From Candidatus Nanoarchaeia archaeon (GTDB lineage Archaea; Nanobdellota; Nanobdellia; SCGC-AAA011-G17; DATDVL01), in the NCBI GenBank assembly GCA_035288725.1, contig DATDZK010000066.1, forward strand, positions 1 through 25,079: DNA of 25,079 bases, given 5' to 3'. The position numbers were made by a program, and so were the translations under genes. Positions 5,089 through 16,893 of this stretch are shown one piece after another. The notes under the pieces were generated by a model that was given only the letters and a program-made list of their open reading frames with translations, searched no databases and had not been told where the DNA came from. How positions within the stretch are numbered: position 1 is the stretch's first letter; each line of letters begins with the position of its first letter.

Positions 5089-5163
5089 TTAACAGTTAAT
5101 ATGCGAATTCAGTCATCTCCGAAGCTTCTGGGCTTTTTCATGCCATATCAAGAAATTTTGTCA
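5089..5163. repeat. 75-bp direct repeat, copy 2 (includes the tuf stop codon)
   Basis: 69/75 identical to 1845-1919; minus-strand core GTTAAAT; 5161-5163 is the TGA of tuf. Confidence 0.85.
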
Positions 5164-6447
5164 CAAAATCTTCTTCACATAATCAATGCACATTCCAGCT
5201 GCAACAGTTGATCCAGCATCCCTGATTGCAAACCTTGCCATGTGCGGAATGTCTTTTTGCTTCTCAATGACTACAGGCTTCATTGGCTTGATCTTTACAA
5301 TTGCAACATCCCCATTCTTGATGAAGTCAACCTTGCCTTCAATCTTCTGCCCTGTTCTTGGATCAAGCTTGTGCATCAATTCTGCAAACTGGCATGCAAC
5401 CTGCGCAGTATGGATATGGAACACAGGCGTATATCCTACAGTAATCACAGTAGGATGGTTCAAGACAGCAACCTGCGCAGTAAATTCAGTCACTATTGTT
5501 GGAGGGCTGTTCTCATGTCCTAAAACATCCCCTCTTTCAATGTCCTTCATCTGTATTCCTTTTACTGTAAACCCTACATTATCCCCTGGAAGCGCTTCAG
5601 AAATAGATTCATGGTGCATCTCAATGGTCTTGACCTCTCCCTTGATTCCCTTGCCATCTCTTGCAGGTACAATTATGACCTTCTCATTCGGCTTCATCAC
5701 ACCAGTCTCAACTCTTCCAACAGGCACAACTCCTATTCCCTTGATATTATACACATCCTGAATAGGCAGCCTTAATGGCAGGTTTGTTGGCTTTTCAGGC
5801 ACGTCAAACTTGTCAAACTGCTCAAGCACTGTTGGCCCTGTATACCAGGGCATGTTTGCAGATTTCTTCACTATATTGTCTCCAATAAATCCTGCAGTAG
5901 GAATGAACTGCACCTTGTCCAGCTTATAGCCAACTCCCTGTATAAGCTTGCTAAGCTCTGCCTTGACATCTTCAAATCTCTTCTGGTCATACTTGGAAAC
6001 ATCCATCTTGTTGACAAGGACAGCAATCTGGCCAACTCCAAGTGTCCTGAGCAGCATCAAGTGCTCTTTGGTCTGCGCCATTGCCCCTTCAGGAGCAGCA
6101 ACAGCCAAAAATGCAGCATCAGCCTGGCTTGTTCCAGTAATCATGTTCTTGATGAAATCCTTATGCCCGGGAGCGTCAATTATAGTGATTTCAAACTTCT
6201 GCGTGATTACCTTCTTGTATGAAAGGTCAATCGTTACTCCCCTTTCCCTCTCTTCCTTCAGGTTGTCCATGACAAATGCAAACTCAAACCCGACCTTCCC
6301 CACCTGCTGTGCAGTCTCCTTCAGCTTTCTCATGGTAGCGTCATCAATCTTTCCAGAATCATACATAAGCCTGCCTATTGTAGTGCTCTTTCCGTGGTCA
6401 ACATGGCCAACGAAAACAATATTTAAGTGTGGTTTTGCTCTTGCCAT
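5161..6447 (-). CDS. tuf: Translation elongation factor EF-1alpha
   Basis: [19 protein letters not shown] and NKMD motifs; archaeal-type N-terminus; upstream GAGGT SD. Confidence 0.99.
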
Positions 6448-6544: not shown

Positions 6545-7105
6545 ATGGGAAATATTAAATATGTAATCGAGCACATGGAGCCAGAGCTGTTTGAGTGGTG
6601 CTTAATCGAGTACAAGAATATATCAAGGATTGTTGGCAGAGAGCATCTGATATTTACAAGTGTTAAGAATGATGCGCGCAAGCTCAAGCAATTTGGAGCT
6701 GTCTGCAATGAGCCAGTTGCCCAGCTTCATCTGCAAAATGCCTGCATCCTGGATCCGGCAGCCTCAAAGACATTGTCCTCGCATGATCAGTTTGAATTCC
6801 TTATCTTCGGAGGCATCCTGGGAGATTTTCCTCCAAAAGCAAGAACAAAAGAGCTGTCTAGCAAGCTTAATTATCCAGCAAGGAATCTAGGAAAAAAACA
6901 ATTCTCCACAGACACAGCAGTCTATGTTGCCAGGGAAATCATGCATGGAAAGATGCTTAAGGATTTTGCTTTTCAAGATGGAATAAAAATAAAATTAAAC
7001 AATGTAGAGACAGTTGAGCTTCCATTCACCTATGTTCTAATTGATGGTAATCCCCTGATTCCTCCAGGCCTAGTGCGTCATTTAAGGCAGAGAAGAGAAT
7101 TTTAG
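6545..7105 (+). CDS. SFM1-like SPOUT methyltransferase
   Basis: YVIEHME...EWCLIEY, ILDP, FGGILGD.PP..RT, RNLGKKQFSTDTAV and ELPF motifs typical of the Sfm1-like family. Confidence 0.82.
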   Translation: MGNIKYVIEHMEPELFEWCLIEYKNISRIVGREHLIFTSVKNDARKLKQFGAVCNEPVAQLHLQNACILDPAASKTLSSHDQFEFLIFGGILGDFPPKARTKELSSKLNYPARNLGKKQFSTDTAVYVAREIMHGKMLKDFAFQDGIKIKLNNVETVELPFTYVLIDGNPLIPPGLVRHLRQRREF

Positions 7106-7527
7106 GCAGAAGGAACAAATGTCGGAATCTCTAGGTGCTTGTAATCGCAGTGAAGCAGGCGCAGAAGCTGAGATTCAATGAATGACTCAGGAGACCTTAG
7201 TGAAGTCTGCATTAAAGTGCCTGCCTGCCTGCCATTGTAGCGGGTAATGACTATGGTGTTGATGCTAATCCCGTCAATAGTCAGCAGGTCTGAAGTGGCA
7301 GTAAACTCAGTAACTAAAGGCGGCCTGGGATCTACAGAAAACGGCCTGAGAATCTCGCCAAGGTACTCAACCATGTGCCTCATCTGCTGCGGGCTGCAGT
7401 TTTCAAGAAAGGCTTTGTTGAAAAGTCCACGGTATAATTTTCTTTTAGGATCATAGGAAAATCCGCATGCATACTCTGGGTTCTTCTGAGCATGCTCCTG
7501 TGTATCTAGCATATTATCAAGCGTCAT
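7102..7527 (-). CDS. Hypothetical protein (141 aa)
   Basis: ORF convergent on the SPOUT gene with a 4-nt overlap; TATA-like TTTTAAG upstream. Confidence 0.6.
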   Translation of the reverse strand: MTLDNMLDTQEHAQKNPEYACGFSYDPKRKLYRGLFNKAFLENCSPQQMRHMVEYLGEILRPFSVDPRPPLVTEFTATSDLLTIDGISINTIVITRYNGRQAGTLMQTSLRSPESFIESQLLRLLHCDYKHLEIPTFVPSA

Positions 7528-7574
7528 GGAAAATAGAAAAAAAGTAATGCTTAAAAGCGTTGTGAATGTGGGTT

Positions 7575-8084
7575 TTATATTGGGACACTCAAGATTTCCT
7601 CATGCAGCTCTTTGTAATGTGCACGAATATATATCCCAAGGCGTTCTAGTAGCATATTATGTTTTGCATGCTCCCTAGAAGGGTTAAATGCCTCGCGAAG
7701 TTCGCTTTCAAGTTCTTCCCTGCTGACAATCTTTCCGAGATAGTCCAAATGGATGATTGCATCAATGTCTGGCTCGCCTTTTGCATAAGGTCTGCGGTAA
7801 TGTTCAGCGAAAGCAGCAAGTAAAACTGTCCTGGCAATGTCCCGCTGTTCTTCATTTATGCCATAATTGATTCTTTCTTCAAGCTCCTGAATATGGCGCA
7901 TATGGTCAGAAGATTCTTGCCATGCCTCTCTCTCTGCTGCCCTCCTTTCTTTCCGTAGATCACTTTTGCTCAATCCTTGTGTAACAGGATCGTTAATCAA
8001 ATCTTTAAATTCATCAAAGCGGCGAACCCTGTTGTTGTATGGCGCATTGCGCACTCGAAATGACGTATGTAGTTGATGTACCAT
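7575..8084 (-). CDS. Hypothetical, largely helical protein (169 aa)
   Basis: GAGGTG SD before the ATG; GAAAAATTTAAATA promoter around 8128-8141. Confidence 0.72.
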   Translation of the reverse strand: MVHQLHTSFRVRNAPYNNRVRRFDEFKDLINDPVTQGLSKSDLRKERRAAEREAWQESSDHMRHIQELEERINYGINEEQRDIARTVLLAAFAEHYRRPYAKGEPDIDAIIHLDYLGKIVSREELESELREAFNPSREHAKHNMLLERLGIYIRAHYKELHEEILSVPI

Positions 8085-8299: not shown

Positions 8300-11098
8300 T
8301 CAGCTCAAGCTCATCTGATCTGGATTCAGTCCCTTCCTTTCGCGAATCCTTCTGATAACCTTCTCCTGCAGGTCACCAGGCACCTTGTCATACTCCTGGT
8401 CAACTAGGTAATAGGTCCCTCTGCCTTCTGTTGCGCTCCTTAAATCCGAGGCAAGTCCTATCATCTCAGCTACTGGAAGCCTGCATTTCACCAGTATCTC
8501 AGTGCCTTTATGTTCCAAGTCTATAAGCTGCCCTCTTTTGTTGCTTACAAGCCTGTTAATTTCACCCATGAAGTCTCCACGGCATTCAATCAGGATTATT
8601 TGGTATGGCTCATACATCACTGCTTTCGCATCCACCATTGCAGCTTTGATAGCTTCGCGAATAGCAGGCAGCACTTGCGCAGGCCCTCTGTGAATCGCAT
8701 CTTCATGCAGCTTGCAGTCCCTGACAACAACTTTAATTTTGACGCAAGGCTCCCTAGCCAAAGGCCCTTCTCTCATCACCTGCTCAAAACCTTCATTAAT
8801 TAGCTCCTGCACTTCCCCAATAGCGACAATGCCTTTAGTGCCATCAATTAGCACATTTTCATTGTAAACATCCCTGATTCTCTTTGCTTCTTTCACAGCA
8901 ATTCCAGCTTTCTCAAGTTTCAGGTAAGCTTCTGCATCTCCCTTTTTCATTTTCCCGCCAGTCAAGACTTCTTCCTTAATTAGATTGTACCATTCCTTGC
9001 TCAATGGCTCAACAGTTATGTAAAACTTGTTGTGCTTGTTTGGGGACTTCCCTTCAACTTCTGCAGAAGGATTCTGGATGGTTTCCCTGTACACAACAAT
9101 GGGCTCTCCTGTCTTCACCTGGAATCCCCTTTCCTCCTTTATCCTGTTTTCAATAATCTCCAAGTGCAGTTCTCCCATGCCATGGATTAAATTCTCCCCA
9201 GTTTCAAGATTAATGGTAACTTTAAGCGACGGATCTTCCTTGCTGACCTTCTTCAGAATCTCAACTAACTTAGGCAAGTCTTGTGGCTTCATGGGCTCAA
9301 TGCTCTTTATTATTACAGGATCGAAAATATGTTTCATGTCCTCAAAAGCTTGTTCAGGTTCAAGCGTTATTGTCTCTCCAGCAAATCCAGAAACTCCTCC
9401 TAGTGCTATGACATTTCCAGCCACAGCCTCTCCAATCTGCTCAGGCCTTATTCCCTTGTACAAGAACACCTGGCCAACGCGCTGGTACTGCTTTGCATTG
9501 TTCAGCCATACCTGCATTCCTTCATTTACAGTCCCAGAGAATAATCTTCCAGCTGCCATCTCCCTTCCGAATTTTGGATCAATTACAATTCTTGTGATTA
9601 CAAATGCGACCTTTCCATTTGGATTGCAGTTGACCAGATCCTGCCCTAATGGGCTTTGGATATCTCCTTTCCAGATGTGCGGAATTCTGTATCTCTGCGC
9701 TTCTACAGGATCAGGCAGGTGATTGATGACCATGTCAAGAATGACTTCATACAAGGGTGCATTCTTCCAGAACCAGTCTGTTATCTCTTCTTTTTGTTTT
9801 CCTGATGTGTACTGCTCAATTATATGCTTGAATGTGATGTTCTTCTTTTTCATCCCAGGAATGCTTAGCCCCCAGTTCTCCCTTGCAGAGCCAAATGCAA
9901 CGCTGCCGTCCATGATGTTTACTTTCCATTTTTCCTTGTACTCATCTTCTGCAATGCGCTCAACAAGCTTGTTGAAATCCAGAACCAGCTTTACAAATCG
10001 CTCCTGCATCTGCTCTGGTGTAAGTTTTAGCTCGTTGATCATCCTGTCTACTTTGTTTATGAATAATACAGGCTTCACTCTCTCCCTGATAGCCTGCTTC
10101 ACAACAGTCTCGGTCTGCGGCATTATCCCTTCAACACCGCAAATCAGCACTATAGTGCCGTCAATTGCTCGCATCGCCCTTGTTACGTTCCCTCCAAAGT
10201 CAACGTGCCCTGGGGTATCAATAAGATTAATCAAATAGGATTGCCCTTCATAGTCATGGCTCATGCTCACATTTGCAGCATCAACAGTCAGCAGCCTTTC
10301 TTGCTCATCCTTGTGCTGCCATGTTGCCATGCCTTCCTCTAAGTTTCCAGCCGCTTTCTCGCTCATCAGCCCAGCTGCTGCAAGCAGGTTGTCAGTTAAT
10401 GCTGTGTTATGAATTATCATTCCTTCTGCAACAAAGTTATGATTATCAGGAATAGTGAAGTCATATACTGTTTCTTCATATGATTGGGAAATAGATTCTA
10501 CAGGAACAAAAGCAAGATCTTCATGGTGGTTTCTGATATTCTGTAGCAATATTTGATTATTTGACCTTACTTGGACCTGAATAGATTCATATTCCATTGA
10601 TAGGCTATTCTTTTCCTTCCAAAAGAATTCTAATTTTCTTGCACAAACAACATTGTCTCCTAATTTAAGTTCTGCAGCTGTTTTTTCTACGAATTGCATA
10701 TGCTCAAAAGTGAGGTACTTGTGTTCAGGCGTTGTTGTAATCCCAAATCCGTTGCGTAGCTTGACAGTAATGGTTTTCCCGCCTTGCAGCTTCCAAGCCA
10801 AATCAATTTTTTTATTCTCAAGGTTTCCTGTTTCCTTGTTGAGCGAAAAAATATATAGGGGATTTTGAGATAGGTCATAGATGGTGTGCTCTTCTTTTTC
10901 CTCAAACTTAGTTCCAAGGCTTAGAGCAGTTTCATATAGTTCCTTTGCAGTCTTTATGCTTCCATTAGCAAGAATAAGCCTGGAGTCTCCAGCTATGCAT
11001 TTTCCATGGTGTATATGCGCAGAAGTGCAGATGTTCCTTATATTCTTCGGCTTCTTCATCAATCTTTTGAGATCTTCAATAGTAGTTGCTTTTCCCAT
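8300..11098 (-). CDS. fusA: Translation elongation factor EF-2 precursor with intein (mature ~734 aa)
   Basis: DTPGHVDF, NKVD, HMGELHLE-like and diphthamide-loop DAIHRGPAQ motifs; intein inside the P-loop. Confidence 0.98.
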   Translation of the reverse strand: MGKATTIEDLKRLMKKPKNIRNICTSAHIHHGKCIAGDSRLILANGSIKTAKELYETALSLGTKFEEKEEHTIYDLSQNPLYIFSLNKETGNLENKKIDLAWKLQGGKTITVKLRNGFGITTTPEHKYLTFEHMQFVEKTAAELKLGDNVVCARKLEFFWKEKNSLSMEYESIQVQVRSNNQILLQNIRNHHEDLAFVPVESISQSYEETVYDFTIPDNHNFVAEGMIIHNTALTDNLLAAAGLMSEKAAGNLEEGMATWQHKDEQERLLTVDAANVSMSHDYEGQSYLINLIDTPGHVDFGGNVTRAMRAIDGTIVLICGVEGIMPQTETVVKQAIRERVKPVLFINKVDRMINELKLTPEQMQERFVKLVLDFNKLVERIAEDEYKEKWKVNIMDGSVAFGSARENWGLSIPGMKKKNITFKHIIEQYTSGKQKEEITDWFWKNAPLYEVILDMVINHLPDPVEAQRYRIPHIWKGDIQSPLGQDLVNCNPNGKVAFVITRIVIDPKFGREMAAGRLFSGTVNEGMQVWLNNAKQYQRVGQVFLYKGIRPEQIGEAVAGNVIALGGVSGFAGETITLEPEQAFEDMKHIFDPVIIKSIEPMKPQDLPKLVEILKKVSKEDPSLKVTINLETGENLIHGMGELHLEIIENRIKEERGFQVKTGEPIVVYRETIQNPSAEVEGKSPNKHNKFYITVEPLSKEWYNLIKEEVLTGGKMKKGDAEAYLKLEKAGIAVKEAKRIRDVYNENVLIDGTKGIVAIGEVQELINEGFEQVMREGPLAREPCVKIKVVVRDCKLHEDAIHRGPAQVLPAIREAIKAAMVDAKAVMYEPYQIILIECRGDFMGEINRLVSNKRGQLIDLEHKGTEILVKCRLPVAEMIGLASDLRSATEGRGTYYLVDQEYDKVPGDLQEKVIRRIRERKGLNPDQMSLS
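10406..10999 (-). mobile_element. Mini-intein (198 aa) in the EF-2 P-loop
   Basis: HGK|CIAGDS...TTPEH...VYDFTIPDNHNF...IIHN|T. Blocks A, B, F and G are present; no LAGLIDADG motifs. Confidence 0.95.
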
Positions 11099-12865: not shown

Positions 12866-13594
12866 CTACTCAGAAGGAAAGGGTCCTCTCTCGGTAAGTT
12901 GCTTCGTTAATTCTATAACTCGATCAATAACTTTACGTACGTCTTCAGAATATTTTTGACGCAGACCATCTAATTCACTTTGCATTTGACCTCTAGCATA
13001 ATTCACTCTATCCTGCTCTTCCATTATTTGCGTCTTCAACAATTCAGAGATATCTTTGTCAGTTCCTATTTCAACTAATCTAACTTCCTTTCCATCATCA
13101 TCAAATTCAGCATATGCCCACCCAGTAGAAGCAGAAGCATCCCATTCTTTTACATCTTTTTTAGGGATAATCTCCATATCCTGTAATTTTGCTTCTATCT
13201 GCTGGTCTGCTTTGCTTCCCTCTGGAGCATTCCAATACCTATCAATATTTCCCATAAAAGTATCATATAGGTTAAGAAAGAATTCTGAATCAACATTATG
13301 CGTAACTGTTCTTGGAAAAACACATTTCTTTTTGTATCCATTATAAAAACCACAATTTACTCCTTCCATACCATCTGGTTGCCATTCACACAAATTGCTT
13401 TTTACGGGACAATCTCTTGTAACAGTATATGTTTCATCTTCATCAGAATCCTGTTTCACTTGCATTTTAAATTGCGGTTCGGTGTGTTTTTCTAATTCTC
13501 TTTCTAATTGTTTTTGGGTTTCTTCACTACGTCCAATTAAAATAATTTCCAAATCTTTCGGAGAAAATTTTCCATCTATATTATCTTCACACAT
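12866..13594 (-). CDS. AT-rich hypothetical protein (242 aa) with a four-Cys cluster and coiled-coil-like tail
   Basis: Long ORF with its own promoter GAAACGTTTAAATA (~13617-13630); 20/60 GC in 13021-13080. Confidence 0.75.
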   Translation of the reverse strand: MCEDNIDGKFSPKDLEIILIGRSEETQKQLERELEKHTEPQFKMQVKQDSDEDETYTVTRDCPVKSNLCEWQPDGMEGVNCGFYNGYKKKCVFPRTVTHNVDSEFFLNLYDTFMGNIDRYWNAPEGSKADQQIEAKLQDMEIIPKKDVKEWDASASTGWAYAEFDDDGKEVRLVEIGTDKDISELLKTQIMEEQDRVNYARGQMQSELDGLRQKYSEDVRKVIDRVIELTKQLTERGPFPSE

Positions 13595-14059: not shown

Positions 14060-14314
14060 TTAGTAGCTGGCAACAGCAACATTGAACTTCTTCTTGCAAA
14101 GCAAGGCTAGCTCAGTGCTTGGCTCGTCAAGCTCGTATATTGTAATAGGATAGATTTTCATGTAGCGCTGCAGCGCTTCCTTTGCATCAGGAGGGCAGTT
14201 CTTTGCAAGGAAAATAGCCTTGGTCTTTCCCTTCCTGACATTGCGCAGAGTTGCATCGCTGCCATAAACGATTTTCTCTTCTTTCAGTGCCTTTCTCAGT
14301 GCCTGTATGCTCAT
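14060..14314 (-). CDS. rpl30e: 50S ribosomal protein L30e
   Basis: IVYGSDATLRNV...IFLAKNCP...ELALLCKKKFNVAV; conserved synteny. Confidence 0.92.
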   Translation of the reverse strand: MSIQALRKALKEEKIVYGSDATLRNVRKGKTKAIFLAKNCPPDAKEALQRYMKIYPITIYELDEPSTELALLCKKKFNVAVASY

Positions 14315-16893
14315 TTCTTGTCCTCCTTCTTTTCATTTGTCACAGCCACAAGGTCAGGCAAGCCAGTTCCCAAAGGCACAATCTGGTTAAGCATGACATT
14401 TTCGATAACAGAGTTCAGGTAGTCAACTTCGCCAACAAGCGACGCATCAACAAGGTGCTCAATTGGAGTTTCAAAGCTTGCCCTTGCAAGAACGCTTTCC
14501 TTCTCGCCTGCAATTCCTGAGCGAGTAATCCCTTTTATTTTCCCAGTTGCAGTCATGCTGTCTGCGATGAAAAGAATGTGCCTTACATCAACTTCAAGTC
14601 CCTGGTCTTCAATAACGCTCTTGGCTTCATTAATGATTGTCTGCCTGGCTGCCTCAATGCCAAGCACCTTCTGCACTTCAAATATGTCATTTGTGGTTGT
14701 CCTGCCTGCATCCACTCCAGGCAATGCAAAGACATCCTTAAGATTCGACCCTGCAGCAAGAATCATGAACTCGCTTCCATCCTTCACAGGCAGCACTTGC
14801 GTAATCTCCTTCACGCCGCGTATGAACACTCCTTTTATTTTCTCCTTCAGCTTGTATGTCTCCATCAGCTCGTTTTCCTTGGCTTTGGTCTTGAGGATTA
14901 TGCTGCTTCCCTCGTCCTTGATGGACGCATGTTTTGCTTCCTGCTCCAGGGCCTTCATGATCTGGTGGTTGGTAACTGAAAGGTTCTTCATCTTCTGCTT
15001 GTCAAGTATCATCTCAATCTGTAATCTTGCCACATCAATTGAGAAATCGCTGACAACTTCCTCTACTCTCGTCTCCTTGATCTGGGCTGCCACCTTCCTG
15101 ATTCTATCAGGGTCCTTTGCAATTTCCTTGTCAAGGTAAATCTTCATCAATGGCGTCTTTATTTCCTTGCGCGCATCAAACAGTTCTATTAGTCTAGGTA
15201 AGCCTTGCGTTACTGCCACTTCTGCTACGCCTGCAAAATGGAAGACATTAAGTGTATTATGGGTGATGATTCCTTCTGCTGTCGTGAAAGTCTCCAGCCC
15301 AGGAACGCTCAAGTCATAGACATAAGGATGGTCATAGTCAACATACTCAATCCTGATAATTTCGTCCCAGATCACGTCAGAATAGAACATGCGCTGCATA
15401 ATTTCAAGCTCTGCTGAGATGTCAGCATTCTTTTCCTTGGCTAGTTGTTCAAAGAGTTTCATGTATCTGAAGAGAGCAGTCCTTCCAATCTTTTGCCTGT
15501 TGGTGAAGTTGTTGACATAGCGCGTAGGATAGCCTACTTTCTTGGCAGCGTTCCTGAAAAGTTCTCCAAATCCAGATATCATGTCTGTATGGTCTCTGCT
15601 TTTATTGCTCCAGAAATGCTTTGCCTTCTCTGCAAGTTCTTCCAATGCTGCATGCTTGTAGTCAATATCGCTGCCAATATGCTGCAGGAATAATGGGGCA
15701 TGCTTGTATGGAATAAGCAGCCAGTGCTGCCCTTTCTTGTCTTTTGCTTTGAAGGAAAATATCTTGAATCTGGAAAGCAGCAATGCAATCCCATCAATGA
15801 GTTCCTTTGAATTTGAGGAGCAGCGAATCATCTTCCTGCCAACATGGATGTTGCCGTCGCCATCAAAGTAGCCGCGCAATAATCCTGAGACAAATTCATT
15901 GCTCGCAGAATATGCAAATTGTGGCACTTTCTTGAAATCAGAGCCTTCGCCGCAATGTTGAGTAATAAAGCGTGCAAGCAGAGAAGAGCTTACCTTGATA
16001 TCCCTGCTATCAGCAAATCCGCGATGATGAAAATCTTCTTTGTAATTCAAGCCAACACTGGTAATGAAGGATTTTGCTTGGTTAATATAATCATTATCCA
16101 AATTTGAGATAGACAAAGCATAATTAGACCCACATCCTTCAGATAAATATGCCCCAACAAACCATCCTGTTAATCCATCCAATGGAATGATGTTCTGCAT
16201 TGGCTTTGTTACTGTTCCCGGAACATGAATAATGCCGTCAGCATCAACAACCATGGGTGATGCAACTTCATCCTGAATTTTGATGTCTTTAGTGATGACA
16301 GGTGCGCTCAGATTGTTAATGGTTGGAATACGATTTCCTATCTTTAATGCTGTTCCTTTAACAGGTATAACCATGTTATCAATGCGCGTAACAAATGAAT
16401 GATTATCAGTGCAGGTAATGGATCTTCCAGAAGCAGTAATGATATTCATGAGCTTCCCAGGGTGTTTGTGCCTGCTGCATTCAATGACGCGCTTCCATTG
16501 CACTTTCTCATCCCTGTCTAGGCTAGGAACGTAAATTTCCAATCCATGTAAGGGAAGAATATGGGAATTATTAAACTCACGATAGCCATTAATATTCATT
16601 AATGTGTCAACAAATTTTCCAATAGGCATAAGTTGTACGGAATTATTTATCCGTAAAATTAACCACTCATTAGTCGCAACGGACATCTGCGTGCTCGGCT
16701 CGCCAAAGCTCTCTGCAGTTATGATTCCAATTGCCTCTCCTGGGCTGATCCTGCTCTTCTTGTATTCCTCATGCAGCAATTCCAGTGCTTCCTGCTTCTG
16801 CTTCGCATTCAGCCTCTCTTCAGCAGCAATTTCCTCAAATTCATCAAGTGCTTTCTTTGGGATTGCGCTTGCAATGTCTTCATTATTTTTCAT
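14311..16893 (-). CDS. rpoA2: RNA polymerase subunit A'' (Rpo1C) precursor with intein (mature ~384 aa)
   Basis: PGEAIGIITAESFGEPSTQM|TLNVFHFAG, QGLPRLIE and LARASFET motifs. Confidence 0.98.
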   Translation of the reverse strand: MKNNEDIASAIPKKALDEFEEIAAEERLNAKQKQEALELLHEEYKKSRISPGEAIGIITAESFGEPSTQMSVATNEWLILRINNSVQLMPIGKFVDTLMNINGYREFNNSHILPLHGLEIYVPSLDRDEKVQWKRVIECSRHKHPGKLMNIITASGRSITCTDNHSFVTRIDNMVIPVKGTALKIGNRIPTINNLSAPVITKDIKIQDEVASPMVVDADGIIHVPGTVTKPMQNIIPLDGLTGWFVGAYLSEGCGSNYALSISNLDNDYINQAKSFITSVGLNYKEDFHHRGFADSRDIKVSSSLLARFITQHCGEGSDFKKVPQFAYSASNEFVSGLLRGYFDGDGNIHVGRKMIRCSSNSKELIDGIALLLSRFKIFSFKAKDKKGQHWLLIPYKHAPLFLQHIGSDIDYKHAALEELAEKAKHFWSNKSRDHTDMISGFGELFRNAAKKVGYPTRYVNNFTNRQKIGRTALFRYMKLFEQLAKEKNADISAELEIMQRMFYSDVIWDEIIRIEYVDYDHPYVYDLSVPGLETFTTAEGIITHNTLNVFHFAGVAEVAVTQGLPRLIELFDARKEIKTPLMKIYLDKEIAKDPDRIRKVAAQIKETRVEEVVSDFSIDVARLQIEMILDKQKMKNLSVTNHQIMKALEQEAKHASIKDEGSSIILKTKAKENELMETYKLKEKIKGVFIRGVKEITQVLPVKDGSEFMILAAGSNLKDVFALPGVDAGRTTTNDIFEVQKVLGIEAARQTIINEAKSVIEDQGLEVDVRHILFIADSMTATGKIKGITRSGIAGEKESVLARASFETPIEHLVDASLVGEVDYLNSVIENVMLNQIVPLGTGLPDLVAVTNEKKEDKK
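15256..16683 (-). mobile_element. Intein (476 aa) with LAGLIDADG homing endonuclease
   Basis: TQM|SVAT...TDNH...WFVGAYLSEG...LLRGYFDGDG...VYDLSVPG...THN|T. Confidence 0.96.

What the first reader, a model, noticed from the sequence alone, without database searches (positions are those of the whole stretch)
10286..11011. EF-2 with both monovalent-cation ligands of the GTPase site replaced
Seen: the P-loop reads AHI-H-HGK|TA instead of AHI-D-HGKTT (codon CAC, 11011-11009). Switch I reads ER-L-LTV instead of ER-G-ITI (10297-10286). DTPGH, NKVD and the diphthamide HRG loop are normal, and EF-1alpha in the same window keeps GHVDHGKS and ERGVTI. Known: in translational GTPase structures the P-loop Asp and switch I Gly coordinate a K+/Na+ ion needed for GTP hydrolysis. 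Inference: the coupled change suggests a different activation chemistry, for example His standing in for the cation. It may be a lineage-wide DPANN trait rather than unique to this genome.
Basis: partly seen in the sequence, partly recalled or inferred. Interest (0 to 1): 0.7.

Follow-up and report, generated by a model that had tools for sequence, protein, structure and literature searches.

The report
His-type archaeal EF-2 GTPase site
The only translocation factor (EF-2) of this small DPANN archaeon has histidine where translation GTPases normally have a catalytic, cation-binding aspartate. This is a conserved, widespread but patchily inherited variant, so it offers a natural test of how ribosomal GTPases are switched on.

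Summary
The ORF at 8300-11098(-) is aEF-2, interrupted by a 198-aa mini-intein between GK and T of the P-loop. The spliced P-loop reads AHIHHGKTA (His30, CAC 11009-11011). Switch I reads ERLLTV (Leu269, 10292-10294).

This is not an error or a spare copy:
- The 121 closest database relatives and 44 genome loci all show His with a non-Gly residue.
- Both His codons are used.
- 100%-complete relatives hold a single EF-2.

The change is larger than two residues. It also includes GKTT>GKTA, a 3-aa insertion, LDF>TW in the switch I helix, gate Ile>Met/Leu, and Asp>Asn after switch II.

His-type EF-2 was found in 108 of 400 high-quality genomes of the phylum sample (261 had Asp, one had both). It occurs in at least four sequence forms, including one in cultivated Nanobdella. 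His never occurs with the switch I Gly.

His-type genes form one clan in the EF-2 tree, yet they are mixed with Asp-type genes within families and genera. One genus carries a His/Asp mosaic.

The claim that both ligands were replaced is overstated, because the Gly ligand is a backbone carbonyl.

The most likely mechanism is inferred, not shown: a protonated His supplies the charge normally given by Asp plus a cation. I found no published description.

The parts
8300..11098 (-). aEF-2 precursor gene (932 aa; 734-aa extein plus 198-aa intein). It is the only EF-2 found in the genome.
   Evidence: Pfam finds GTP_EFTU, EFG_III, EFG_IV, EFG_C and D2. TIGR00490 aEF-2 scores 886.7 bits against a cut-off of 738.45 on the post-intein part alone. 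The own-genome search finds a single EF-2.
11000..11020 (-). P-loop (G1) N-extein part, AHIHHGK
11009..11011 (-). His30 codon (CAC), at the position of the conserved catalytic, cation-binding P-loop Asp (EF-Tu Asp21, MnEF-2 Asp31)
   Evidence: aligned to solved aEF-2 structures; role of the Asp from PMC8244253 and PMC5084732
10406..10999 (-). 198-aa mini-intein (Cys1, TTTPEH block B, C-terminal His-Asn, +1 Thr) without a homing endonuclease domain
   Evidence: Pfam Intein_splicing, 7e-25. It aligns end to end with the 490-aa LAGLIDADG-bearing inteins at the same site in G002, G004 and G032; about 290 central residues are missing.
10400..10405 (-). Thr34-Ala35. Thr34 is both the intein +1 nucleophile and the Mg2+-binding P-loop Thr. 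Ala35 replaces the second Thr of GKTT.
   Evidence: Thr35/Thr36 roles in MnEF-2 from PMC8244253
10277..10363 (-). Remodelled switch I (extein residues 48-76). It has a 3-aa insertion (LEE, 10334-10342), Thr-Trp replacing Leu-Asp of LDF (10319-10324), and ERLLTV (10283-10300).
   Evidence: alignment of 80 EF-2 genes; type-specific columns
10292..10294 (-). Leu (extein residue 71) at the position of the switch I Gly whose backbone carbonyl binds the monovalent cation
   Evidence: PMC8244253
10205..10219 (-). Switch II DTPGH with the catalytic His, unchanged
10187..10189 (-). Asn (extein residue 106) replacing the Asp of GGDVT just after switch II. This column is type-specific.
8684..8707 (-). 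Diphthamide loop HEDAIHRG, unchanged
5161..6447 (-). EF-1alpha, an internal control with canonical GHVDHGKS and ERERGVTI

Best explanation
This is the genome's sole, functional translocase. It belongs to a conserved 'His-type' lineage of archaeal EF-2.

Shown:
- After the P-loop intein splices out, the G domain has His at the P-loop Asp position.
- Several other changes are co-inherited with it: GKTT>GKTA; a switch I helix with a 3-residue insertion and a Thr-Trp motif; Gly>Leu and gate Ile>Leu/Met before the Mg-binding Thr; and Asp>Asn after switch II.
- The catalytic switch II His, the G4/G5 motifs and the diphthamide loop are intact.

Inferred:
- Next to the triphosphate, and on the ribosome next to the sarcin-ricin-loop phosphates, the His side chain is protonated.
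- It would then itself supply the positive charge that canonical factors obtain from Asp plus a bound K+/Na+ (free factor) or Mg2+ (on the ribosome). In effect it is a built-in 'histidine finger'.
- With no ion to hold, the Gly constraint in switch I lapses, and bulkier residues (Leu, Trp) pack around the imidazole.
- GTP hydrolysis would still be triggered by the ribosome through the unchanged switch II His.
For: Identity and function:
- TIGR00490 scores above its cut-off, and all five domains are present.
- There is a single EF-2 in the own genome and in the 100%-complete His-type relatives G007 and G025.
- In 400 high-quality genomes, 108 carry AHIHHGK, 261 carry AHIDHGK, and only G329 carries both. 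In G329 the Asp-type copy has lost the diphthamide motif while the His-type copy keeps it.

Selection:
- His is invariant in 43 aligned relatives of 58-85% identity and in all 121 best hits.
- Both CAC (30) and CAT (16) codons are used.

Coupling:
- All His-type forms have Leu, Glu, Gln or Cys instead of the switch I Gly, and all but the intermediate second copy of G543 (L041b) have Thr-Trp instead of Leu-Asp. All 36 Asp-type loci keep RGITI.
- The change is specific to EF-2. EF-1alpha and aIF5B of the same genomes keep the P-loop Asp.

Literature:
- The Asp carboxylate and the Gly carbonyl form the M+ site in aEF-2 (PMC8244253).
- EF-Tu Asp21Ala lowers ribosome-stimulated GTPase about 1000-fold. 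In ribosome-bound EF-G the Asp holds a Mg2+ near A2662. A His near the nucleotide and the sarcin-ricin loop is computed to have pKa >9 (PMC5084732).
- Yeast Snu114 has His143 at the same P-loop position (PMC7192624).
Against: - No structure or assay exists. The AlphaFold2 model has pLDDT below 50 in switch I (59-76) and switch II (99-105), so it says nothing about where His30, Trp62 or Leu71 sit.
- A cation could still bind through backbone and phosphate oxygens.
- The only characterised protein with His at this position, Snu114, is held in a non-hydrolytic GTP state (PMC7192624). That could point to slowed hydrolysis rather than cation-independent hydrolysis.
- All His forms may descend from one event (AU test p=0.70). 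The His/non-Gly/Trp association therefore rests on few independent origins.
Confidence: 0.5

Rival explanations
1. The cation is retained. His30 is neutral and merely hydrogen-bonds a phosphate or a water. K+/Na+ (or Mg2+ on the ribosome) still binds through the Leu269 backbone carbonyl, phosphate oxygens and water. The module is a drifted but mechanistically ordinary variant held together by compensatory changes.
For: The switch I ligand is a backbone carbonyl (PMC8244253). The Gly position varies in several cation-site-bearing trGTPases (PMC4342817) and in the aIF5B of these genomes, which keep the Asp. Asp with Gln at the Gly position exists in other DPANN EF-2 (P0178, P0233). EF-Tu Asp21 mutants keep measurable activity, and no K+ stimulation is seen on the ribosome (PMC5084732).
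Against: The only side-chain ligand is lost, and the local charge changes from negative to neutral or positive. In EF-Tu and eIF5B, Asp mutants lose K+ stimulation (PMC5084732). The strict absence of His with Gly, and the conserved Thr-Trp shared by nearly all His forms, argue for a reorganised site rather than drift.
Confidence: 0.25
2. It is a slow or weakly hydrolysing translocase. Like Snu114 or EF-G2, the His-type G domain binds GTP tightly and hydrolyses poorly. Translocation would then rely mainly on GTP-state binding, which slow-growing, host-dependent DPANN cells could tolerate.
For: Snu114 has His at the same P-loop position and stays GTP-bound and non-hydrolytic (PMC7192624). T. thermophilus EF-G-2 lacks the Asp and Gly yet supports poly-Phe synthesis (PMC8244253). 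EF-Tu Asp21Ala is about 1000-fold slower (PMC5084732). The holders have reduced genomes of 0.5-1.7 Mb.
Against: The catalytic switch II His, DTPGH and all other G motifs are strictly conserved in every His-type sequence, whereas EF-G-2 has lost the catalytic His. Close relatives with similar genome sizes, in the same genera, keep the Asp type. The variant therefore does not track lifestyle in any obvious way.
Confidence: 0.15
3. A different metal is used. The His28-x-His30-His31 cluster binds a divalent or transition-metal ion that takes over the role of the monovalent cation or of the bridging Mg2+.
For: The P-loop has three His within four residues. Imidazoles are good ligands for Zn2+, Mn2+, Fe2+ and Ni2+ (general knowledge).
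Against: His28 and His31 are also present in canonical AHIDHGK, where no such metal is described. No other new ligand residue is conserved: the type-specific columns are Ala, Thr, Trp, Leu, Met, Val and Asn.
Confidence: 0.07
4. It is an artefact, a pseudogene or a dispensable paralog.
For: The genome is only 57% complete, so a second copy cannot be excluded in this bin alone.
Against: The reading frame is intact. The intein has all its splicing residues. The family equivalog score is above cut-off. The gene sits in the conserved S12-S7-EF2 neighbourhood. The same variant is the single EF-2 in 100%-complete relatives and occurs in more than 160 independent sequences.
Confidence: 0.01

Closest known systems
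Canonical archaeal EF-2 (TIGR00490; e.g. Methanoperedens nitroreducens EF-2 with GMPPCP, PDB 6U45, and Pyrococcus EF-2, 5H7J)
   Same: It shares the five-domain architecture, 60-65% identity over the first 200 residues to solved aEF-2, DTPGH, NKVD, G5 and the diphthamide loop. It also shares the gene neighbourhood and is single-copy.
   Different: - P-loop Asp>His and GKTT>GKTA.
- The switch I helix has a 3-aa insertion and Thr-Trp for Leu-Asp.
- RGITI>RL(L/M)TV.
- GGDVT>GGNVT.
- About 20 type-specific columns in domains G and II.
Snu114 / EFTUD2 (spliceosomal EF-2 paralogue of eukaryotes)
   Same: It has His at the P-loop Asp position (yeast G-P-L-H143-S-G-K-T-S, PMC7192624). It is an EF-2-family five-domain protein that retains the switch II His.
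   Different: Snu114 is a eukaryotic paralogue beside a canonical eEF2. It acts in the spliceosome, not on the ribosome, is kept GTP-bound by Prp8, and has an acidic N-terminal domain. Here the His-type protein is the only EF-2 and keeps the diphthamide loop. The resemblance is most likely convergent.
e/aIF2-gamma and bacterial EFGII / EF-G-2
   Same: These are trGTPases already known to lack the cation-binding Asp (Ala in eIF2-gamma, Gly in EFGII) and the switch I Gly (PMC4342817, PMC8244253, PMC5084732).
   Different: eIF2-gamma is activated by a protein, not by the ribosome. EFGII is an accessory paralogue that has also lost the catalytic His. Neither puts a potentially cationic residue at the position, and neither is the cell's sole translocase.
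Cation-dependent TRAFAC GTPases (MnmE, Era, dynamin) and Arg/Lys-finger GTPases
   Same: Conceptually, a positive charge placed between the alpha- and gamma-phosphates activates hydrolysis. Evolution has swapped ions and side-chain fingers before (PMC6310460).
   Different: In those families the charge comes from K+/Na+ held by a K-loop, or from an Arg/Lys supplied in trans or from another domain. A P-loop His in cis has not been described as such a finger in the papers I could search.

Membership tests
Archaeal elongation factor 2 (aEF-2, TIGR00490 equivalog) | Whole-protein HMM score above the curated cut-off | tested here: met
   886.7 bits against a cut-off of 738.45 for the post-intein 701 residues. 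The intein-free ortholog P0001 (90% identical over the tree's 631 columns) scores 923.1.
Archaeal elongation factor 2 (aEF-2, TIGR00490 equivalog) | Five-domain architecture G/G', II, III, IV, V | tested here: met
   Pfam finds GTP_EFTU, GTP_EFTU_D2/EF-G_D2, EFG_III, EFG_IV and EFG_C. The AF2 model has mean pLDDT 82.
Archaeal elongation factor 2 (aEF-2, TIGR00490 equivalog) | Catalytic switch II His (DxPGH), NKxD, and the diphthamide-acceptor loop HxDxxHRG | tested here: met
   DTPGH, NKVD and HEDAIHRG are all present.
Archaeal elongation factor 2 (aEF-2, TIGR00490 equivalog) | Sole translocase of the genome | tested here: met
   One EF-2 in G000 (57% complete). One each in the 100%-complete His-type genomes G007 and G025. 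Only 1 of 400 high-quality genomes has both P-loop types.
Monovalent-cation-dependent translational GTPases (Kuhle-Ficner motif) | P-loop Asp whose carboxylate binds M+ | tested here: not met
   His30 (CAC 11009-11011). The motif definition is taken from PMC8244253, PMC4342817 and PMC5084732.
Monovalent-cation-dependent translational GTPases (Kuhle-Ficner motif) | Switch I Gly preceding the I-T of G2 (a backbone carbonyl ligand) | tested here: not met
   The residue is Leu269 (10292-10294). However, the ligand is a backbone atom, and the residue varies in other family members (PMC4342817). This failure is therefore weak evidence against cation use.
Monovalent-cation-dependent translational GTPases (Kuhle-Ficner motif) | K+/NH4+ stimulation of GTPase, or an ion seen in a GTP-state structure | not testable with these tools
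   This needs biochemistry or crystallography. The AF2 model is unreliable in switch I and II.
Class 1 intein (mini-intein) | Cys1, block B TxxH, C-terminal His-Asn, and a nucleophilic +1 residue; Hint fold | tested here: met
   The features are Cys34, TTTPEH, His-Asn231 and Thr232. Pfam Intein_splicing scores 7e-25. The intein is homologous to the 490-aa inteins at the same site.
Class 1 intein (mini-intein) | Homing endonuclease domain (needed for mobility, not for membership) | tested here: not met
   There is no LAGLIDADG hit. The central ~290 residues present in the G002, G004 and G032 inteins are absent.
Snu114/EFTUD2 | Eukaryotic spliceosomal paralogue with an acidic N-terminal domain, existing beside eEF2 | tested here: not met
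   There is no N-terminal extension. The best structural-sequence matches are aEF-2 (2.9e-74), against Snu114 at about 1e-26 to 1e-30. The organism is an archaeon with a single EF-2. Only the P-loop His is shared.

The most novel reading that the evidence does not exclude
His-type EF-2 is a translational GTPase that needs no cation at the Asp site. A protonated P-loop His acts as a cis 'histidine finger' toward the alpha/gamma-phosphates and contacts the sarcin-ricin-loop phosphate directly. This co-adapted G-domain/domain II module is an exchangeable unit that moves between DPANN lineages by recombination, possibly helped by the homing intein that sits three codons from the His. That would explain why sister genera, and even members of one genus, differ in EF-2 type.
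Probability: 0.25. Interest if true: 0.8.

Novelty: new variant of a known kind. Interest (0 to 1): 0.62.

Why it matters
The P-loop Asp is described as conserved in all ribosome-activated translational GTPases and as a second catalytic residue: EF-Tu Asp21Ala is about 1000-fold slower (PMC5084732). Whether it acts through K+, through a Mg2+ bridge to the sarcin-ricin loop, or electrostatically is still debated.

A natural, strongly conserved Asp>His replacement in the sole translocase of roughly a quarter of sampled Nanoarchaeota-type genomes gives a ready-made experiment:
- Nature has already found the compensating changes (Thr-Trp, Gly>Leu, GKTA).
- Closely related Asp-type and His-type proteins exist in the same genus, along with a natural chimera.
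- At least one holder is in culture (Nanobdella aerobiophila), and probably Nanoarchaeum too.

The work also shows that EF-2 exists as two deep, recombining types in these archaea. This is a further reason not to use EF-2 as a phylogenetic or completeness marker there.

Tried and rejected
- **Structure.** I built an AlphaFold2 model of the intein-free ortholog from a 43-sequence alignment. It is good overall (pLDDT 82), but switch I and switch II are below 50. No geometry for His30, Trp62 or Leu71 could be read, so I ran no fold search.
- **Ribosome co-variation.** I tested whether the sarcin-ricin loop changes with EF-2 type. A G2661A variant exists in the order, but it occurs with both EF-2 types, so I rejected it as a partner change.
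- **Genome-wide shift of trGTPases.** Rejected, because EF-1alpha and aIF5B keep the P-loop Asp in both His-type and Asp-type genomes.
- **N-terminal cassette only.** I tested whether just the P-loop-to-switch I segment is exchanged, for example by intein co-conversion. This was not supported in general: with columns 1-100 removed, the His-type genes still form one clan. The one clear mosaic (genus g194) has its breakpoint near residue 360, not near the intein site.
- **Species tree from flanking genes.** I planned to use the flanking rpo/S12/S7 genes, but that synteny holds in only 10-23 of 81 loci. I used EF-1alpha (40 loci) and the taxonomy codes instead.
- **Literature.** Searches for the motif strings and for Nanoarchaeum EF-2 returned nothing. 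Kuhle and Ficner 2014 itself is not held; its content is cited through PMC8244253, PMC4342817 and PMC5084732.
- **Not used.** Read mapping was not needed, because the variant is confirmed by more than 160 independent sequences. Complex prediction was not used, because no protein-protein claim is made.
Full report
**What is in the window**

The ORF at 8300-11098 on the minus strand encodes a 932-aa protein. Pfam finds the full EF-2/EF-G domain set plus an intein splicing domain. Translation and codon mapping give the following layout:
- Residues 27-33 read AHIHHGK, and His30 is CAC at 11009-11011.
- A 198-aa intein follows Lys33. It runs from Cys34 to His-Asn231 (10406-10999), and the extein resumes with Thr-Ala.
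- R-L-L-T of switch I lies at 10297-10286.

DTPGH, NKVD and the diphthamide loop HEDAIHRG are canonical. EF-1alpha in the same window keeps GHVDHGKS and ERERGVTI. The post-intein part alone scores 886.7 bits on the aEF-2 equivalog TIGR00490, against a cut-off of 738.45.

The intein is a derivative, without the endonuclease, of the 490-aa LAGLIDADG inteins found at the same site in G002, G004 and G032. Its +1 residue is the Mg2+-binding P-loop Thr, so the P-loop exists only after splicing.

**Not an error and not a spare copy**

- The own genome (545 kb, 57% complete) has one EF-2.
- Among 40 relatives, every His-type genome has one EF-2. These include G007 and G025, both 100% complete.
- The 121 best hits in the 5.8-billion-protein collection all read AHIHHGK with RL(M/L)TV. 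Their sources name them Pacearchaeota, Woesearchaeota or Nanoarchaeota EF-2.
- In 43 aligned relatives of 58-85% identity, His30, Ala35, Thr61, Trp62 and Leu71 are invariant.
- The His codon is CAC in 30 loci and CAT in 16.

**The change is a module, not two residues**

I aligned 80 EF-2 genes fetched from genomes of the class. The main His form (H1, which includes the window) differs from the Asp type at about 20 columns:
- D30H, T35A (GKTT>GKTA), S37T and G43A.
- A 3-residue insertion at 55-57.
- L61T, D62W and F63Q (LDF>TWQ).
- G71L, I72M/L (the hydrophobic-gate residue) and I74V.
- D106N, just after switch II.
- A few positions in the G' subdomain and in domain II.

Other His forms exist:
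- AHIHHGKTT with FTWWH and RE(I/M)T, in Nanoarchaeales-type genomes.
- SHVHHGKTT with (Y/F)TWF and R(Q/E)LT.
- SHIHHGKTT with TWI and RLMT, named Micrarchaeota by its source.
- An intermediate second copy in G543, with His, GKTA and ERCMT but no insertion or Trp.

Across all of these, His never co-occurs with the switch I Gly. All 36 Asp-type loci keep RGITI. Asp with Gln does occur (P0178, P0233).

One holder can be named. P0146 is labelled Nanobdella aerobiophila by NCBI, and its longest contig (668,961 bp) equals the length of G495:C1. G290:C1 is 490,885 bp, which from my memory is the size of the Nanoarchaeum equitans genome. That identification is an inference.

**Distribution and evolution**

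Pattern scans gave the following:
- In the window's order (240 genomes), the His type is present in all five f1 genomes, in f12, f29 and f23, and in most of f22.
- It is present in only one genus of f4 (g6), one genus of f15 (g91) and two genera of f11.
- In a phylum-wide sample of 400 high-quality genomes, 108 carry AHIHHGK, 261 carry AHIDHGK, and one (G329) carries both.
- Several genera contain both types (g194, g139, g192, g266).

Trees and recombination:
[quoted passage not shown] It places 38 H1 genes from 14 families in one clan (SH-aLRT 99). The Asp-type genes of the same families sit elsewhere.
- The neighbouring EF-1alpha gene follows taxonomy and needs at least 6-10 changes of EF-2 type on its tree.
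- Holding all His forms together is not rejected (AU p=0.70).
- In genus g194 the His-type genes are mosaics. Residues 1-360 resemble His-type genes of their family. Residues 361-734 resemble the Asp-type genes of their own genus.
- In G329 the two types lie in tandem. The Asp-type copy is the divergent one and has lost the diphthamide motif.

EF-2 therefore exists here as two deep types that replace each other, by horizontal replacement or by paralogy with loss, and they recombine. I could not decide between these two histories.

**Specificity**

aIF5B keeps its P-loop Asp in both His-type and Asp-type genomes, while its switch I 'Gly' position is Leu, Lys or Ala. EF-1alpha is canonical. The sarcin-ricin loop does not co-vary with EF-2 type.

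**What is known**

- In aEF-2 bound to GMPPCP, the nascent monovalent-cation site is formed by the Asp31 carboxylate, the Gly69 backbone carbonyl and phosphate oxygens (PMC8244253).
- The Asp is described as conserved in trGTPases except eIF2-gamma. EF-Tu Asp21Ala lowers ribosome-stimulated hydrolysis about 1000-fold. Asp mutants lose K+ stimulation. On the ribosome, the Asp of EF-G holds a Mg2+ near A2662. A His near the nucleotide and the sarcin-ricin loop is computed to have pKa above 9 (PMC5084732).
- A survey of 1483 genomes listed only EFGII (Gly) and eIF2-gamma (Ala) as P-loop exceptions. It noted that the switch I Gly varies in eEF2, Snu114, Ria1, aIF5B and EFGII (PMC4342817).
- Yeast Snu114 has His143 at the Asp position and is kept in a non-hydrolytic GTP state (PMC7192624).
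- A study of EF-2 evolution in Archaea does not mention the P-loop (PMC6143161).
- Full-text searches for the motif strings and for Nanoarchaeum EF-2 found nothing.

**Mechanism**

The steps shown are the identity of the gene, its sole-copy status, the conservation of the variant, and the co-inheritance of His, Thr-Trp and non-Gly.

The inferred step is as follows. The His is protonated in the anionic pocket and supplies in cis the positive charge that Asp plus K+/Na+ or Mg2+ supplies in canonical factors. The Gly constraint is thereby released, and hydrophobic residues pack around the ring. I give this reading about 0.5.

The rivals are:
- the cation is retained through backbone and phosphate ligands (0.25);
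- a slow, Snu114-like GTP-state translocase (0.15);
- another metal bound by the His cluster (0.07);
- an artefact (0.01).

The AlphaFold2 model could not discriminate among these, because switch I and II are modelled with pLDDT below 50.

**Verdict**

The claim that both ligands were replaced is overstated. The trait is a widespread, patchily inherited EF-2 type rather than a peculiarity of this genome. It is a new variant of a known kind. It is of real interest to the translational-GTPase field, because it contradicts the 'invariant catalytic Asp' and comes with natural controls.

Noticed in passing
L127:1501-1514 (G025 23S rRNA) and the genomes listed; the window's own genome has no 23S hit: The sarcin-ricin loop reads AGUACGAAAGGAAC in many genomes of the order. 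That is G2661A in E. coli numbering, giving a GAAA instead of a GAGA tetraloop. It is found in all 13 f22 genomes with a hit, and in G058, G169, G038, G170, G029, G027, G014 and G040. G2661 is usually regarded as universally conserved. The variant occurs with both EF-2 types.
   Followed up: partly
L034, L035, L036 (genus g194) versus L032, L033: These are natural EF-2 chimeras. Residues 1-360 are His-type (72-90% identity to the family's His-type genes over residues 1-120). Residues 361-734 are closest to the Asp-type EF-2 of the same genus (71-88%). The breakpoint is near the boundary of domains II and III.
   Followed up: yes
L083 (G329:C16), two tandem EF-2 genes: This is the only one of 400 high-quality genomes with both P-loop types. 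The His-type copy keeps HEDAIHRG. The Asp-type copy is on a long branch and lacks the diphthamide motif, like the EF-2 paralogues described for Asgard and Korarchaeota.
   Followed up: partly
L041 (G543:C2), two tandem EF-2 genes 2.4 kb apart: Both copies have the P-loop His. The second is an intermediate form (GKTA and ERCMT, no insertion, no Thr-Trp) and is 70% identical to the first.
   Followed up: partly
window 14311-16893 (-): The ORF in the RpoA'' position is 860 aa, about twice the usual length. It may hold another intein or be a fusion.
   Followed up: no
window 6545-8084, between EF-2 and EF-1alpha: Three small ORFs (186, 141 and 169 aa, on mixed strands) separate EF-2 from EF-1alpha. 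A 242-aa ORF (12866-13594) sits between nusA and rps12. The usual S12-S7-EF2-EF1alpha string is therefore interrupted twice in this genome.
   Followed up: no
L114:2-1660 (G000:C22), aIF5B: The aIF5B switch I reads GLITQ instead of GGITQ. Relatives have GKITQ or GAITQ, while all keep the P-loop Asp. The P-loop of the window genome's copy is cut off by the contig end.
   Followed up: partly
EF-2 P-loop site in relatives (L042, L048, L054, L109, L110, L111; L011, L026): The same GK|T insertion site holds inteins of 183-198 aa (mini) or 477-490 aa (with LAGLIDADG), in both His-type and Asp-type EF-2. The same-genus genome G001 has none.
   Followed up: partly
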